Origin: Sphyrna mokarran
Taxonomy: Eukaryota
Reading direction: 5' to 3'
DNA: 64,000 bases
NCBI GenBank assembly: GCA_024679065.1
Contig: JAGIQG010000001.1
Coordinates: 148,924,001-148,988,000, forward strand
Shown here: positions 2,909 to 60,054 of the stretch, one piece after another
How positions within the stretch are numbered: the first letter of the stretch is position 1
Layout of the letters: every line of letters starts with the position of its first letter
Made by a program: the position numbers and the translations under genes
Notes under the pieces: generated by a model
Told to the model about the DNA's origin: nothing
Databases searched by the model: none
Seen by the model: only the letters and a program-made list of their open reading frames with translations

Positions 2909-3049
2909 TTTCAAGTTCCATATTACCAAATAACTTACTTCTTTTATTTTTGCACATAACATATGTAAGTACTTGAGCACAACGTTTCTATTACTTAGCA
3001 TGGTTTCTAGTTGATGGATAACATGGATTCAAGAAATAATCTACAGTTC

Positions 3050-9939: not shown

Positions 9940-11223
9940 GTTTGGACTGATTAGAAATAGTCAGCATGGTTTTGTCAAGGACAGGTCATGCCTTACGAGC
10001 CTAGTTGAGTTCTTCGAAAATTGACTGAACACATTGACAAAGGAAGGGCGGTGGACATAGTGTACATGGACTTTAGCAAGGCGTTTGATAAGGTCCCCCA
10101 TGCAAAACTTCTGGAGAAGGTGAGGGGGCATGGGATCCAAGGGGCTTTGGCCTCGTGGATCCAGAACTGGCTTGCCGGCAGAAGGCAGAGAGTGGTTATG
10201 GATCGGTCTTGTTCTGCATGGAGGTCGGTAACCAGTGGAGTGCCCCAGGGATCTGTTCTGGGACCCCTGCTGTTTGTCATTTTCATAAATGACCTGGATG
10301 AGTAAGTGGAGGGATGGGTTAGCAAGTTCGCCGACGATACAAAGATCGGTGGTGTTGTGGATGGTCTGGAGGGATGCCAAAAGTTGCAGCGGGACATAGA
10401 CAGGATGCAAGATTGGGCGGAGAAGTGGCAGATGGACTTCAACGCAGATAAATGTGTAGTGGTCCATTTTGGCAGGAATAATGGATGAAGGAGTACAATA
10501 TAAGGGGTAGGAGTCTTAGCTGTGTTGTAGAGCAGAAGGATCTCGGGGTCCGGGTCCATAGGACTCTTAAATCAGCCTCGCAGGTGGAGGAAGTGGTCAA
10601 GAAGGCGTACGGCGTACTGGCCTTCATTAATCGAGGAATAGAGTTTAGGAGTCAGGAGGTAATGATGCAGCTCTATAAGACGCTTGTCAGACCCCAGTTG
10701 GAGTATTGTGCGCAGTTCTGGTCGCCTCATTATAGGAAGGATGTAGAGGCTATTGAGAGAGTTCAGAGGAGATTTACAAGGATGCTGCCTGGATTGGGAG
10801 GCAGGCCTTATGAAGATAGGTTGAGGGAGCTGGGACTCTTCTCACTGGAGAGACGTAGGTTGAGAGGCGACCTGATAGAGGTTTATAAAATGTTGAGAGG
10901 AATGGATAGGGTGGACTCTCAGAGACTATTTCCCCGAGCTGAAATGGTCACTACGAGAGGACACAGATTTAAGGTGCAGGGAAGCAAATACAAAGGAGAT
11001 GTCAGGGGTAGGTTTTTCACTCAGAGGGTGGTGAGTGAATGGAACCGACTGCCGTCGGAGGTTGTTGAGGCAAACTCACTGGGGTCTTTTAAGAGACTTC
11101 TGGATGAGTATATGGAAAAGAATAGGATAGGGGGTTATAGATAGGTCTGTGGATTGGTAGATGTGATCGGCGCAACTCGTGGGCTGAAGGGCCTGTTTGT
11201 GCTGAATTGTTCTATGATATCTA
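9940..11223 (+). mobile_element. Young 5'-truncated CR1 (HER1-like) LINE; reverse transcriptase pseudogene
   Basis: Translates to [56 protein letters not shown] and FFTQRVV. One stop (10303-10305), one frameshift (~10485), ORF ends at 11144, then a CR1 tail ending ttctatg. Confidence 0.97.
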
Positions 11224-14055: not shown

Positions 14056-15406
14056 ATGTTAATTTATGCAAATTAGGCTCACACCATTCGTGAGTGTGAA
14101 CCCGATTATATGACAAGCAGGAGCTAGGGAAAGTCTCATTCTGAGATATTGCTGGCTCGGATCCTGTTTTTGGCCTCTCACGAGATTTAGCGACCATTAC
14201 AAGATTCATGAGGTCATTAGATTGCAGCTACTGTCTGTGCCTTACCTGTTCAAAGCTCTAGAATTGAACCAGTCTAGTTTTTCGTGGATTCCATTGGCTC
14301 CTTGATTTGATTATATTTTAAACTCTTCAATCTTGCATCAAATACAGGCACAACAATATGTCCATGCCATGATGGAAGAGATAATTCCTCATTATGACTG
14401 AGGCAAAGGCCAATGGCAGGGCTGAATCCATTGGAGATAACAGCATGCTCATACCTAATTATCTTTCTCACATTTCAGTCCTCCATCAGTGCACAATTGT
14501 TTCTGATTTTTAAGCTGCAGTTGGTGTAAGCTTCCACCCCATTCTCTTTTCTACAACTCTTGTGCTTTTCACCTTTGAAATACACAAAAACTGCAACACT
14601 AGAACTGGCAGAAACTCACGGAAGACAGGAATTAAGCATGTTTAGTTGATGTTTGTATGAATATAACAATGTTTCATTTTGAAATTTGGATTAGAATGTT
14701 CATTGTATTGTGTGTTCATTATCTGAGCATTGTGATCTGGTGAATGTTGTGGTGGACGGTAACAGAGAAAGTTAAAGTGTGGGACTGTTGTGAATGGGAA
14801 ATTGGGATTGCCTTTGTGATATTGTCATTGGATCAGTTGCTCATATAAGAGGACCGCATAGAAAGGGGCTGTGATGGTTGCCTCCTCCCTGTTGCTCACC
14901 TCCCTCCTGTACTACCATCTCTGTTTCATGTCCTATTGCTCCTCCTCCCCCTCTAGTCACTGTGTCGCTGATGGCAAGAGTTATACCTTTATGATGGTGT
15001 GGTTGTATGAGATGTAACAGACCATGACAAATCACTCTGCTGAATACTTCACAGCTACTCCACACATTGGAATCATTGCTTACGCACCTCAGTAGTATAT
15101 TTGATCACATTCCATTTGGTTATATAGCTTTTATTAAGTACTGCTGTTTGTGTGTGGATTGCACACCAAAATCATGAGTCATGTAATCAACAGATAGCTC
15201 TTCTCACCTTTGTTACTAGCCTGTAGCCTGTTGCTCAGTGTGGACATCAGTAATGCTGCCAGAAAGCCACGCATAATATGCTCTCTGAAATATTTGTATT
15301 GCATGCTCGTTGAATATTGAGGGAGTGAATAGCTTCCTTTTGTGGTACACTGCAACGTATGTGCTGCAAATGGCATCATGTATGGGAAAGTCTGCATCGA
15401 AAAAAA

Positions 15407-15541
15407 TTGTCTGTGCTGATGTGTGCTATTGCAGACCAGAACACTGCATTTGCCTGAGGAAGACACAGGAGTCGAAAGCTCGCGTTTTTACTATCAAATA
15501 AATCGGTTGGATTATAAATTGGTGTTGCTAAATTCTTACTG
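15407..15541 (+). mobile_element. Penelope-like terminal repeat fragment with hammerhead motif
   Basis: Homologous to 59732-59868; contains CTGAGGA-a-GAC-acagga-GTC-GAAA-GC-TC followed by actatcaaataaa. Confidence 0.75.
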
Positions 15542-18500
15542 AGTTCGAAAAAAATTGGCACTGTAGTTCTGAATTTTTGTGGCCTCAATTTTTCATATTT
15601 AATGTACCTTCAACCAGAAATACCTGCCAACAAGTAGAAAAAAATTAATCTTAGCTACTAAATTATGTTTCAAAAAGACACCTGCATTTCTGATAGATAA
15701 GAAGAATACACCAGCAATACTAATCTAGGCTGACAACTGATCAGTGCAAAAGTAGAGAATGAGTAAGATGATGTGGCACAGAATGTGCAATATTAAACTG
15801 TCTTTGCCTGTTTGAAGGCTACCTGGATTTTATGAACTGCAATGTCACTGTATTGTATTTATATCAGCTGCAAACACGACCTTAGCTATGTTAGATCAGG
15901 GCTGTTAAGAATCTTAGTGGAGGTTAGCTAATGAATGTAAGTAGGAAAATTATTTGTCAACTTCAATTGGAAAATATTGAATTTCAGTGACTTAAAAAAA
16001 ACACAATTAACACAACCACATTGCTACTTCATGAAACTGGAATAAAGGCACAGCCAACTGCAACCCAAACCTTCAATCTGATAGCTAACAATTACTTATG
16101 ATTGAAGTGCTAAGTGGCATTAGAAGAGAGTCAAAGAAAAGAGGACCCAGAGGTTGAGGGGAAATCAATGATCAGGCAGGTTGATCTTCCAGGATAAGTT
16201 ATGATCATGCAGATGGTTCGTCCAGGCTATGGTAGAGTCAATCATCAGGGTAGCTGATGAGGTTCAACCGTGGTATTGCCTGATGCAATTTTTCAAAGCC
16301 ATCTTAGGCATCCTTTTGGCTGAGATGCAGCATTAGTTCAAGCCCAGGAAAGGGTGCAATGCTTTATCTTGTCAGCTTGAATCTTGTTTGTCTGTTTTGC
16401 GGGGACCATGAATTGGATTCAATTTGAATTTTTTTTTTTGGATGGATAGTGGTTAATGCATCATCTAACAGTAGTAATTTTAATTCATCCTACTTAGTGG
16501 AAAATGAGTTGGCAGGTTGGTAACATGGCTAGAGTGACTTATCCCTGTTTATCCTGCTGTTAAAATTTTAAATAATATTATAGTGAATTTTTTTGGAGGG
16601 CAAGTAAGCATTTACAGCCCTTGACTTTAAATCAGGAAGATTGGGTGCTGCTTTAAAACATGTGTTCTTAATTGTTTTATATGTTATACTAATGAATATG
16701 TAAATATTCATTAGTATTCTTTGCAAATATACTTGCATATTTGTCTACTAGAAAATAGAAGTCATGCAAATTGCAAACCTTAGGTAAATTGACTGTACAA
16801 CAGAAGCTTTTTGCTTAATATCTGCCTATTTCTAATGTGCCGCCCTCACCAATCCTCTTGCAACCAACTCCTCCACTGACCGTAAGAGCTTTGATAGATT
16901 TAAATCTTTTATTTCTCTTCCCTTTCGATCCAAATTGGTTGGGAAAGATTTAACAAAGATTTGTCCTAATACTTTGTTGGATTAGTGTAAAATGTTACCC
17001 CTGTTGTTGTGACAATTTTGTGCTCGTCCATGAGAGATCCAAACTGAGGATGTATGAACGACCTTTTTTGTTTATTGATTTGGGTTGGTAATGTGTGAAG
17101 TTGCCTGATGTAAATCAACTCTGCCTCCATGAATGCTTTGCCACGAGAGTGATATAGTCCTTTTATAGACTAAAGAGACCTTTATAAAGGTTTCACTAGG
17201 AGTCTATGAATAATCCTTTAGCTGGAGTGCCTTGGCATTCATCAGCTTGTTAATAATGGAATTCAGTATCTCATTTAAATTATTAGCCTTTATACAATTT
17301 TATATTAAGCATCTCAAACATTGCTGCACTTTCATCAGACTTGTCTGGTGCTGTGTGAATAACTGTACAATGGTCAATGACTGTCAAAACTATTTTTTAG
17401 AACATTTGGGGTCACTTCCTAAACTTTTATCACAAATGCCATACAATTATTTGAAGAATCCTTAGTCTTAAAATGCTCAGATATATGTGAAAACACTTAA
17501 TGTGCTTGTATGAAGTGTTTTATCCACTATTTTAGTGAAGATATTAATCATTATGTGGATTAACTTTTCTATTAATATAACAGACAAAATCAATTCTGCA
17601 GCAGCAATCTTTCTCATTCAATCTATATTTGACTAGTTTCTTCATTTTTTCAGGTGATGTTAATCATGATAAAAGCTTAATAGTTGTGCGAGCACTTGCT
17701 GCAGTATGGACAGGTTCAAAAAAAATTCTGTGGTGCTGTTTTTGGTGCAACTTGCTGAATATGAGTCAGTTGCAGAATTGTTGCAGACAATTTAATAGTA
17801 GGGTGATATCAGATCAGCTGCCTCTTTTACATCTCTCATTTTCATTGTCTTCCATGAAAGGGAAGTCTGGAGAGATCTTTAATAGGTGACTAATCAATAC
17901 TTTTCATTTTACCCTTTCATCAAAATATTAAAGACCTCTATAGGAGTTTTATTAGATGCTGTGCTGTACCTGCTTAAGAGATAACTGAATTGCAAACTGG
18001 TGCAAACTTCTACCCATTGCATATAAATTACACACAACTAATATGAATAGACAATATAAAAACACTGGAAGACAATATCTCATTCTCTTACAGTCCCATA
18101 ATCTTTATTGTGAACCATCATCTAAACAAAAAAGAGCAAAAAGTCTGCTCTTTTTGTCTTGCAGCTTTCTGTAAGCCATTCTTTATTTTTTCCCCCCTTT
18201 TGAGCCCTAACATCTCTTTGTGTTTAAAGTCAGTAGTTCAACTGGATGCTTGTGATTTGTATGGGACTAATCTTGAGAGAGAGTAATGAGCATTTTTCAT
18301 TTAGCAAGCTGTTGACAAGGCATTTAAACTAATGCTCTTAGAGGGTCATTAGCCTTTTCAGAGTTATTCGGATAGTTAGTGGAAACACTAAAACCCTGTG
18401 TCTTCAAGCCCTGATTAGTGACACTTTGATAAAGTCATCTGAAGTTCCTTGGACTGAATTTTCTACCTTTTCTGCTGTTTCTATGGTCACTGTGAAACGA

Positions 18501-41307: not shown

Positions 41308-41607
41308 CATAATCAAGGATCCCATACATCACAGCCATTCTTTCTTCCTCCTTCTTCCATCAGAAAAAAGATACAAAAGTCTGAGCACATGTACAAACCC
41401 TGACTCAAAAACAGCTTCTTCCCTGCTGCCATCAGACTTTTAAATGGACCAACTTCGCATTAAGTTGATCTTTCTTTCTCTGCACCCTAGCTGTGACTGT
41501 AACACTACATTCTGCACTCTCTCCTTCTCTATGTATAGTATGTTTTGTCTGTTTAGCACGCAAGAAACAATACTTTTCACAGTATACTAATATACATGAC
41601 AATAATA
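41308..41607 (+). mobile_element. Rex1/Babar-like LINE 3' fragment
   Basis: ctcaaaaacagcttcttccctgctgccatcagact (LKNSFFPAAIRL) and a 3' UTR shared with 59110-59311. Confidence 0.85.
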
Positions 41608-56280: not shown

Positions 56281-56376
56281 TAGTTTACTATCAAATAAAT
56301 CGATTGGACTTAAACCTGGTGTTGTCAGACTTCTTACTGTGTTCACCCCAGTCCAACGCCAGCATCTTTACATCAT
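56281..56376 (+). mobile_element. Penelope-like 3' terminal fragment (no hammerhead)
   Basis: Reverse complement of 59386-59478; flanked by tgtgtaacta / tgtctaacta, a possible target-site duplication. Confidence 0.75.
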
Positions 56377-57769: not shown

Positions 57770-59311
57770 TGGCTTGTTGACACAATGACATAATCTCTCC
57801 CTCAATGTCAACAAAACAAAGCAGATTGTCATCAACTTCAGGAAGCATAAAGGAGAACATATCCCTATCTACATCAATGGGGATAAAGTAAAAAGAGTCG
57901 AGAGTTTCAAGTTTTTAAGTGTGCAGATCACCAACAACCTGTCCCCATGCCAATACAATAGTTGAGAAAGTCCACCAATGTCTCTCACTTTCTCAGAAGA
58001 CTAAGGAAATTTGATATGCCAGCTACGTCTCTTACCAACCTTTATAGATGCACCATAGAAGGTATTGTTTCAGGTTGTATCACAGGATGGATATGGCTCT
58101 TGCTCTGCCCAAGACCGCAAGGAACTATAAAAAGTCATGAATGTAGCCCAGTCCATCATGCAAACCAGCCTCCCATCCATTGACTCTGCCTACATTTCCT
58201 ACTGCCTCAGCAAAGCAGCCAGCATAATTAAGAACCTCATGCACCCTGGACATTCTCTCTTCCACCTTCTTCTGTCGGGAAAAAGATACAAAAAACTGAG
58301 ATAACGTACCAACGGACTTAAGAGTGACTATTGGACTAGTGAAATGGAGTATTATTTAAATGGTGATAAATTACAACATGCTACTGTGTAGAGGGACCTG
58401 GGTGTCCTTGTGCATGAATTGCAAAAACTCAGTTTGCAGGTGCAGCAGGTGATCAAGAAGGCAAATGGAATGTTGGCCTTTATGGCGAGGGAGATGGAAT
58501 ATAAAAGCAGGAAGGTCTTGCTGCAATTGTACAGGTACTGGTGAGGCCGTAACTAGAGTACTGTGTGCAACTTTGGTCCCCTTATTTGTGAAAGGATATA
58601 TTGGCCTTGGAGGGAGTACAGAGATGGTTCACCAGGTTGTTACCGGAGATGAAGGGGTTAGCTTATGAGCAGAGAATGAGTAGATTGTGCCTGTACTCAT
58701 TGGAGTTTAGAAGGCTGAGCGATAATCTTATAGAGACGTATAAGATAATGAAGAGGCTTGATAGGGTAAAGGCAGAGAGATTCTTTCCACTTAGAAAGGA
58801 AACAAGAACTAGAGGACACAGCCTTAAAATAAGGGGAAGTCAGTTTAGAACATAGTTGAGCTGGAACTTCTCAGAGGGTAGTGAATCTCTGAAATTCTCT
58901 GTCCATTGAAGCAGTGGAGGCTACCTCATTGAATATGTTTAAGTCACAGGTAGATAGATTTTTGATCGATAAGGGAATTAAGGCTTATGGGAAGCAGGCG
59001 GGTAAGTGGAATTGAACCACTTTCAGATCAGCCATGATTTTATTGAATGGTGGGACAGGTTCGAGGGGCTAGATGGCCTACTCCTGCTCCTATATCTTAT
59101 GTTCTTATGAGAGCAACTTTTTCCCTGTTGCTGTCAGACTTTTGAATGGACCTACCTCGCATTAAATTAATCTTTCTCTACACCCTAGCTATGACTGTAA
59201 CATACATTCTGCATTCTCTCATTTCCTTCTCTATGAATGGTATGATTTGGCTCGCAAGAAACAATACTTTCCACTATATATTAATACATGTGACAATAAA
59301 TCAAATCAAAT
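57770..59311 (+). mobile_element. Rex1/Babar-like LINE 3' portion, interrupted at 58325-59109
   Basis: NLSLNVNKTKQIVINFRK, VESFKFL and HFLRRLRKF..LTNLYRCTIE motifs; 3' UTR ending (tcaaa)n. Confidence 0.88.
58325..59109 (+). mobile_element. CR1 LINE 3' fragment nested in the Rex1-like element
   Basis: ALEGVQRWFTRLLPEMKGLAYEQR..LYSLEFRRL..TRTRGHSLKI; tail tcttatgttcttatg. Confidence 0.92.
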
Positions 59312-59383
59312 ATATTTGCCTACAAGTAATGGCTTCAAAAATATTTCTGATTTACGTGCCGAAGTCCTGCTCATTTAAATGGC

Positions 59384-59868
59384 CGTGATGTAGAGATGCC
59401 GGCATTGGACTGGGGTAAATACAGTAAGAGGCCTGATAACACCAGTTTTAAATCCAACCGATTTATTTGATAGTAAACTTGCAAGCTTTTGGCTTTATGG
59501 CCTTTGTCAGGCGAATGAGGTGTTCTGGTCTGCAATAGCACACAGTGAGTGGAAGGAGACCCCCATGACTTGCCTGGGTTAGCAAAAAACCTCACTTACT
59601 GTGCTGTCTGGAGACAATCACATCTCTCTAACCTGTGCTCAGTGCTCCTTCCACTCACTTTGTTAGCCACTTTAAGACTTGAATAGCAGGCTAGGTATAA
59701 AGATTCACATTCTAATCAACAATCTGTAAACTGTCTGTGCTGATATGTGTTCTGTTGCAGACCAGAACACCTCATTCGCCTGACGAAGGCTATAAAGCCG
59801 AAAGCTTGCGAGTTTACTATCAAATAAATTGGTTGGATTTAAAACTGGTGTTGTCAGACCTCTTACTG
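59384..59868. mobile_element. Non-autonomous Penelope-like insertion with inverted terminal repeats and hammerhead motifs
   Basis: Inverted arms 59422-59545 / 59746-59868; 12-bp direct repeat catttaaatggc at 59372-59383 and 59869-59880. Confidence 0.8.
59774..59813 (+). ncRNA. Minimal type I hammerhead ribozyme motif
   Basis: Stem I attcgc/gcgagt, core CUGACGA, stem II GGC-uauaaa-GCC, GAAA, palindromic AGCU stem III, UH site at 59806-59807. Confidence 0.7.
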
Positions 59869-60054
59869 CATTTAAATGGCGATAGGAAGACTTGCATTTT
59901 GGTAGCATTTCCAAACTTTGGGACATATAGAACCTCATAACTAGTAAAGTTTTTAGTAGCATAGTCACTGTTATAATGTAGAGAAAAGAAGAAACCAACT
60001 TTCACGTAACATGATCCCCCCCCCCCCCACTAAATAACATTGGAATAAATAGCC

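What the first reader, a model, noticed from the sequence alone, without database searches (positions are those of the whole stretch)
59372..59880. Compact non-coding retroelement: divergent hammerhead-bearing repeats bounded by a 12-bp TSD
Seen: a 485-bp insert between exact catttaaatggc repeats, made of ~123-bp inverted arms, each with a hammerhead motif and AATAAA-like signal pointing outward, with no ORF; partial relatives lie at 15407 and 56281. Known: Penelope-like elements carry minimal hammerheads in their terminal repeats and often insert with an inverted repeat. Inference: a non-autonomous, retrozyme-like Penelope derivative. The element class is known; whether this family is described I cannot tell.
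Basis: partly seen in the sequence, partly recalled or inferred. Interest (0 to 1): 0.7.

Follow-up and report, generated by a model that had tools for sequence, protein, structure and literature searches.

The report
Head-to-head truncated Penelope retrotransposon insertion
This 485-base stretch is two cut-short end pieces of a very common Penelope-type jumping gene joined back to back, a layout already described for these elements; its joint occurs only once in the genome, so it is most likely a one-off scar rather than a self-copying ribozyme element, and it likely arose when the enzyme copied its RNA onto both strands of the cut DNA.

Summary
The anatomy is real; the non-autonomous reading is not supported. 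The insert (59384-59868) sits in an exact 12-bp duplication. Its right arm is the 3' repeat (pLTR) of an abundant RT + GIY-YIG Penelope-like element with a Neptune-type linker: 24 of 24 best 95%-identical matches run on into that ORF. The left arm is the same repeat inverted and carries the 35-nt tail that the right arm lacks. Both junctions occur once in 2.77 Gb. Of 77 head-to-head insertions surveyed, 64 of 67 with both ends resolved pair a tailed with a tailless arm, and 57 have 10-15-bp duplications (control 1 of 352); none of 58 share a junction. The right-arm minimal hammerhead is intact; the left has lost G8 and G12. The layout is in print (PMC8557442, PMC3846280, PMC4209133), and this scan noted the kind before on other DNA of this genome (27 notes fit the look-up). 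Residual interest: the strict one-tail pairing fits two-sided priming by a dimeric enzyme (inferred).

The parts
59372..59383 (+). Target-site duplication, left copy (12 nt)
   Evidence: Exact repeat; family duplications are 10-15 nt, mode 13; likely single copy in another organism (inferred)
59384..59421 (-). 35-nt PLE 'tail' (59387-59421) plus 3 nt at the place of the ORF start codon; present on this arm only
   Evidence: Aligns to the end of the pLTR in L007 and L052; in full-length L052 the tail runs straight into the ATG
59422..59544 (-). Left arm: inverted, 5'-truncated pLTR (reference 2863-2985)
   Evidence: 92% to right arm and to L007
59477..59516 (-). Decayed minimal hammerhead (G8>A, G12>A, one stem I G>A, all at CpG)
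59545..59558 (-). 14-nt junction filler copied from the element itself (reverse complement of 59645-59658)
   Evidence: (I5); junction unique in the genome
59559..59868 (+). Right arm: whole 3' UTR/pLTR from the last base of the ORF stop codon to the tailless end
   Evidence: 95% to 24 loci that all continue upstream into the GIY-YIG ORF; loose contig ends before 59559 read as the ORF end in three runs
59774..59813 (+). Intact minimal type I hammerhead: stem I 59774-79/59808-13, core, bulged A, stem II 59788-99, palindromic AGCU in place of helix III; predicted cut after 59807
   Evidence: matches the features listed in PMC4209133
59823..59828 (+). AATAAA inside the pLTR (mirror copy 59462-59467 on -); function untested
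   Evidence: Sequence
59869..59880 (+). Target-site duplication, right copy
15404..15545 (+). Separate insertion: single tailless pLTR end of another subfamily
   Evidence: 80%; candidate 13-nt duplication
56282..56375 (+). Separate insertion: single tailed pLTR end starting at about the hammerhead cut
   Evidence: 88%; no duplication found

Best explanation
The insert is one head-to-head pair of 5'-truncated ends of an abundant endonuclease-bearing Penelope-like retrotransposon with a Neptune-type linker, most likely made in a single insertion event and likely never copied again. Shown: both arms are the element's pLTR, one tailed and one tailless, inside a 12-bp duplication, with a junction found once in the genome. 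Inferred mechanism: the RT/GIY-YIG protein nicked both target strands about 12 nt apart; each 3' end primed reverse transcription on element RNA, one at the tail-end start site and one 35 nt further in; the cDNAs stopped after about 160 and 310 nt; the shorter one slipped about 90 nt on a 3-5-nt microhomology and picked up 14 more bases (from the RNA or from the other new arm); host repair joined the two. The hammerhead and AATAAA are passengers of the pLTR. The copy has since decayed (10 of 129 arm differences, 9 transitions, 4 at CpG), and a read-through transcript would fold both ribozyme motifs into one long hairpin. I put 0.93 on the identity and about 0.6 on the two-sided priming step.
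For: [quoted passage not shown] 24 of 24 top matches to the right arm continue into the ORF. Both junction patterns give 1 hit (itself) at up to 2 mismatches. Survey: 64 of 67 head-to-head insertions with both ends resolved are tailed + tailless (49 of 51 without the tail-selected set); 57 of 77 have a 10-15-nt duplication against 1 of 352 mismatched-flank controls; 15 of 15 further palindromes chosen only by their apex have exactly one tailed arm. 10 ORF-less head-to-head inserts in 864 kb of unselected DNA. The tailless arm is the longer one in 21 of 58, this insert included, so it cannot be a fold-back copy of the tailed cDNA. In vitro a PLE protein nicks and extends both strands and starts RT at two sites that define the tail, and is predicted to be a dimer (PMC11167929).
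Against: In 20 of 58 simple pairs both arms stop within 15 nt of the same position (18 of 28 in the two least biased sets, 5.4 expected), and apices favour short palindromes: these fit fold-back self-priming, proposed in PMC3846280, as well as or better than two independent cDNAs. The two arms are each other's best match in only 18 of 57 pairs (top 3 in 33). The DNA search scored 40 of 6281 candidates and the tool warns that very common words are skipped. No Neptune microsatellite target bias was seen. The empty site is inferred from table values, the joint row was not displayed.
Confidence: 0.9

Rival explanations
1. The 485-nt unit is a non-autonomous, retrozyme-like element that is transcribed, self-cleaved and re-inserted as a unit by a PLE protein.
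For: One intact minimal hammerhead; both pLTR ends and start sites are present; PLE-derived non-autonomous elements exist (bioRxiv 10.64898/2026.07.22.740005; PMC8557442). Five other loci look similar over most of the length.
Against: Those five have different junctions. Junction patterns are unique. No two of 58 insertions share a junction. The motifs face apart on opposite strands, so no transcript holds two in tandem; the left one has lost two core bases; the arms sequester both.
Confidence: 0.03
2. Same parent element, but the inversion was made by fold-back: one cDNA self-primed and copied itself, and the endonuclease trimmed the tail from one end.
For: Proposed in outline in PMC3846280 and PMC8557442. 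Symmetric short palindromes are common: 575 with the apex near the hammerhead, peaks at short palindromes.
Against: For this insert the tailless arm is 188 nt longer than the tailed arm, so neither arm contains the other; the same holds for 21 of 58 pairs. It would need a further template switch.
Confidence: 0.25
3. A longer head-to-head insertion that later lost its middle by deletion or palindrome repair.
For: Long near-perfect inverted pairs are common in this family (97-98.5% over 1.2-1.6 kb) and long palindromes are unstable (established knowledge).
Against: A 14-nt templated filler at the junction and frequent fillers or microhomologies at other junctions are typical of joining at insertion; long pairs persist in the assembly. 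Not excluded; it changes the history, not the identity.
Confidence: 0.08
4. A MITE or foldback DNA transposon with terminal inverted repeats.
For: Short, non-coding, inverted arms, duplication.
Against: Arms are not terminal on both sides (35-nt offset), derive from a retroelement pLTR, and size and junctions vary from copy to copy.
Confidence: 0.01

Closest known systems
Inverted, tailed insertions of EN+ Penelope-like elements (general scheme in Craig et al. 2021, PMC8557442 Fig. 2 legend; Adineta vaga Pen2/Pen3 in PMC3846280)
   Same: Inverted 5'-truncated copy next to a direct copy, 30-40-bp tail at one end only, 8-10-bp duplications reported in Adineta, short palindromes at the junction.
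   Different: Here both copies are cut back to the pLTR so no ORF is left; duplications are 10-15 nt (mode 13); host is a shark-like genome; a 14-nt templated filler sits at the junction.
Minimal hammerheads of metazoan PLEs (Cervera and de la Pena 2014, PMC4209133)
   Same: Type I core, extra base before stem II, G10.1-C11.1 pair, palindromic bases in place of helix III; that paper already reports pairs of motifs 100-700 bp apart on opposite strands in Schistosoma.
   Different: Shark-like host; stem II is 4 bp here; left copy has decayed.
Neptune clade of PLEs
   Same: C-terminal GIY-YIG-type domain with two cysteines between the core motifs and a CX2-5CxxC linker (CX4CxxC) in the parent ORF.
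   Different: No tree against reference Neptune/Nematis sequences was built; no microsatellite target bias seen.
Non-LTR (animal) retrozymes (PMC7229834; bioRxiv 10.64898/2026.07.22.740005)
   Same: Non-coding, type I hammerhead, pLTR-derived sequence of a few hundred bases.
   Different: Retrozymes are head-to-tail repeats of a recurring unit expressed as linear and circular RNA; this is a unique head-to-head pair.
Poseidon element of the green anole, PAc (Frangieh et al. 2024, PMC11167929)
   Same: Two RT start sites bounding a tail; both target strands nicked and extended in vitro.
   Different: Penelope/Poseidon clade, tail inside the ORF; here the tail ends at the ATG.

Membership tests
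EN+ Penelope-like element (parent family) | Single ORF with RT | tested here: met
   813-aa frame in L052, RVT_1 above cut-off; 967 homologues at E<=1e-30
EN+ Penelope-like element (parent family) | C-terminal GIY-YIG endonuclease with CCHH | tested here: met
   Read by eye from the translation; Pfam gave no GIY-YIG hit on this protein but many homologues carry PF01541
EN+ Penelope-like element (parent family) | Partial-tandem pLTR upstream of full-length copies | tested here: met
   27 of 30 loci with the ORF start have an upstream direct piece, one of them a 24-nt ORF fragment rather than a pLTR
EN+ Penelope-like element (parent family) | 30-40-bp tail at one end, inverted 5'-truncated copy | tested here: met
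   35-nt tail; 64 of 67 pairs mixed
EN+ Penelope-like element (parent family) | Minimal hammerhead in the pLTR | tested here: met
   (38 descriptor hits in 44 selected loci); cleavage not assayed
Neptune clade | CX2-5CxxC linker between RT and EN (shared with Nematis) | tested here: met
   CX4CxxC in L052 and L053; criterion from PMC8557442
Neptune clade | RT phylogeny with reference Neptune elements | not tested
   No named reference PLE proteins were on hand
Neptune clade | Insertion bias for microsatellites (reported for some members) | tested here: not met
   50 duplications are mixed sequence, AT 62.5% against 59.5% background; not a strict defining feature
Non-LTR retrozyme | Head-to-tail repeats, a hammerhead in each unit | tested here: not met
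   Head-to-head pair, one motif decayed
Non-LTR retrozyme | The unit recurs as a family | tested here: not met
Non-LTR retrozyme | Expressed as cleaved linear and circular RNA | not testable with these tools
MITE / foldback DNA transposon | Terminal inverted repeats and uniform size across copies | tested here: not met
   35-nt offset; simple pairs range from 132 to 4438 nt

The most novel reading that the evidence does not exclude
This shark PLE family records its insertion chemistry with unusual regularity: a dimeric RT-endonuclease makes a 12-14-nt staggered cut and its two subunits are obliged to start at different sites, one at the tail end and one 35 nt inside, so that nearly every two-armed insertion is tailed on one side only. 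The hundreds of tiny palindromes whose arms stop at the same place near the hammerhead would then be run-off copies from a shared RNA 5' end, in part made by ribozyme cleavage in vivo.
Probability: 0.4. Interest if true: 0.45.

Novelty: new member of a known kind. Interest (0 to 1): 0.15.

Why it matters
The insert itself matters little: by extrapolation from 10 in 864 kb it is one of some tens of thousands of ORF-less head-to-head stubs in this genome. It is a caution for scans: such stubs mimic MITEs and retrozymes. The family-level counts matter somewhat more. How PLEs finish an insertion is still open (PMC11167929 calls the later steps unvalidated), and a young, very large family with near-obligate one-tail pairing and a fixed 12-14-nt stagger gives quantitative predictions for an in vitro system. 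The parent protein has 79-86% identical relatives in three named sharks, so orthologous comparisons are possible.

Tried and rejected
Rfam, gathering and E-value modes: no hammerhead family, so the motif rests on a descriptor and a fold. Idea that the 14-nt filler marks an RT jump across a pLTR hairpin: the predicted fold of the L007 pLTR is no better than shuffles (z 0.51) and does not pair those segments; the jump is unique in the genome; dropped. Apparent pile-up of 5' ends at reference 2938: an alignment artefact of older subfamilies that continue upstream with a diverged hammerhead. Idea of a fixed RNA 5' end at a promoter or the ribozyme cut: upstream pieces of 27 full-length copies start anywhere from 1920 to 2962; among 50 of 575 listed palindromes the modal spacer (8 nt, 7 cases) puts the apex at the cut, but peaks at 12 (6) and 16 (5) also fall on short palindromes; inconclusive. 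A shared start at the stop codon in L001, L004, L005: explained by ranking against the query. No empty-site joint was among the rows shown for X1, X2, X3, X21 (408 rows not shown). Literature searches: (twin priming + Penelope) gave one review on human elements, (Penelope + Neptune + shark) one mollusc paper, two papers; seen as listings only except PMC3846280. Repbase, Dfam and the 2005-2006 reviews cited by PMC8557442 could not be searched, and no supplements were read, so the family and the one-tail rule may already be on record there.

Full report
Observation. The 12-nt repeat, the 485-nt insert and the inverted arms are as described. The right arm holds a minimal type I hammerhead (59774-59813) that folds as expected and is the only hit of a descriptor in the window, with none in 20 controls. 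The left arm's copy has G8>A and G12>A. Of 10 differences between the arms over 129 nt, 9 are transitions and 4 are at CpG. Rfam does not score the motif. The two other window copies are real and belong to other subfamilies.

What it is. Searching the own genome (2.77 Gb) with the insert gave 6281 candidates, 40 scored. The best matches cover only 59559-59868 at about 95%. In all 24 such loci (L007-L030; L013 and L029 are two arms of one insertion) the match continues upstream into a coding frame that reads as a GIY-YIG-type endonuclease. A full-length copy, L052, has an 813-aa open frame with RVT_1, a CX4CxxC linker and the endonuclease, followed by this repeat. The endonuclease part has 64,654 first-look candidates. 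The best named homologues are shark proteins at 79-86% identity, so the host is shark-like; I did not identify it. The linker is the mark of Neptune and Nematis elements (PMC8557442); no tree was built. With the ATG of L052 as position 1, the 3' UTR starts at 2679, the hammerhead cut is predicted after 2926, tailless copies end near 2985 and tailed copies at 3020, where the tail meets the next ATG. The insert is then: inverted 3020-2863, a 14-nt filler copied from the element, and direct 2675-2985. Contigs from three public runs also continue from 59559 into the ORF end (table 7), and one contig spans the left flank and junction with no difference (it may be the assembly's own sample).

Does the unit recur? 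No. A probe over both junctions and a probe over the first alone each match once, at this place, with up to 2 mismatches. The five loci that resemble the whole insert (84-89%) have other junctions. Among 58 simple tailed/tailless pairs, five pairs of loci have both ends within 3 nt, and none of these shares junction letters.

How common is the layout? I mapped the family in four samples: loci ranked by the insert, loci ranked by the endonuclease, 864 kb chosen blind (80 stretches of 10 kb plus the window), and loci ranked by the last 75 nt. Eleven duplicate loci and all insertions touching a locus edge were dropped. Of 77 head-to-head insertions, 64 pair a tailed with a tailless arm, 2 are tailed on both sides, 1 on neither, and 10 have one end cut short. 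Without the tail-selected sample the count is 49 of 51. A duplication of 10-15 nt (mode 13) was found in 57 of 77, against 1 of 352 controls with flanks from different loci. In the blind sample 18 of 39 insertions are head-to-head and 10 are ORF-less like this one. Fifteen further palindromes picked only by their apex each have exactly one tailed arm. Target sites show no motif.

Empty site. In run X11 (another organism) one 280-nt contig of depth 2 lies on 59872-60013; depth is exactly 2 over 59305-59364, the distance-to-end value places the end of that piece at 59374, and one record runs over the stretch's end. These values fit one contig that joins the two flanks across a single 12-mer. The joint row itself was not displayed, so this is an inference.

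Mechanism. Shown in print for another PLE: the protein nicks and extends both strands, starts reverse transcription at two sites that bound the tail, does not need ribozyme cleavage in vitro, and is predicted to be a dimer (PMC11167929, parts 1-2 of 4 read). I infer that here each nicked strand primed one cDNA, one from each start site, and that the two truncated cDNAs were joined. For: the strict one-tail pairing, the constant stagger, and the fact that the tailless arm reaches further 5' than the tailed arm in 21 of 58 pairs, this one by 188 nt, which a fold-back of the tailed cDNA cannot give. Against, or at least a second route: 20 of 58 pairs stop within 15 nt of the same position (18 of 28 in the two least biased samples, 5.4 expected by permutation), 575 tiny palindromes have their apex near the ribozyme, and apices favour short palindromes, as the self-priming idea of PMC3846280 would predict. 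The arms of a pair are usually close kin but best mutual match in only 18 of 57. A transcript through the insert would fold into one long hairpin that occupies both ribozyme motifs, and the motifs lie on opposite strands, so the dimer that minimal hammerheads need (PMC4209133) cannot form in cis.

What is known. [quoted passage not shown] PMC3846280 (passages) gives inverted pLTRs with tail and 8-10-bp duplications. PMC4209133 (parts 1-2 of 4) reports minimal hammerheads in PLEs, including pairs 100-700 bp apart on opposite strands. Retrozymes are tandem, recurring and expressed as circles (PMC7229834, abstract; bioRxiv 10.64898/2026.07.22.740005, part 1 of 5 and passages); this insert fails the first two tests and the third could not be run. 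Searches did not find a paper on this shark family or on twin priming in PLEs; Repbase, Dfam, the older reviews and all supplements were out of reach or unread. Earlier notes of this scan reached the same reading on other copies; I formed mine before opening them and tested it here.

Verdict. Real, ordinary, explained: a unique head-to-head stub of a very abundant Neptune-type PLE. Interest 0.15. The family-level regularity is the only part with some value, as a test bed for the unfinished model of PLE insertion.

Noticed in passing
G000 genome-wide (L213-L227): 575 tiny palindromic insertions have their apex within about 15 nt upstream of the conserved block that follows the hammerhead; the modal spacer puts the apex at the predicted cut, but local palindromes confound this.
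   Followed up: partly
L075, L101, L117, L162, L165, L174, L177, L179, L181: A cluster of 215-310-nt palindromes whose two arms both start at reference 2879-2898, at the 5' edge of the hammerhead, in different subfamilies; cause unexplained.
   Followed up: partly
L002:1830-1852: A second insertion with a junction filler copied from the same pLTR segment as the filler here; found by similarity to the query, so possibly selection.
   Followed up: partly
L183-L212: Direct pieces upstream of full-length copies reach up to 1.1 kb back into the ORF's 3' end, which implies templates longer than one unit (tandem or circular RNA).
   Followed up: no
L052:3845-6286, L053:3185-5536: Long open frames (813 and 783 aa) with 97-98% identical inverted partners: the family has young members.
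   Followed up: partly
window 59110-59311 and 59027-59108: 3' ends of two other abundant repeats lie just left of the insert; copies at 41412, 45321, 22654 and 13634. Not identified.
   Followed up: no
window 9961-11144: Frames that look like the C-terminal part of a CR1/L2-type LINE reverse transcriptase (recognised from memory, not tested).
   Followed up: no
L062:3113-5091, window 15404-15545: Single tailless arms with their own 13-14-nt duplication: one-armed insertions use the same stagger.
   Followed up: partly
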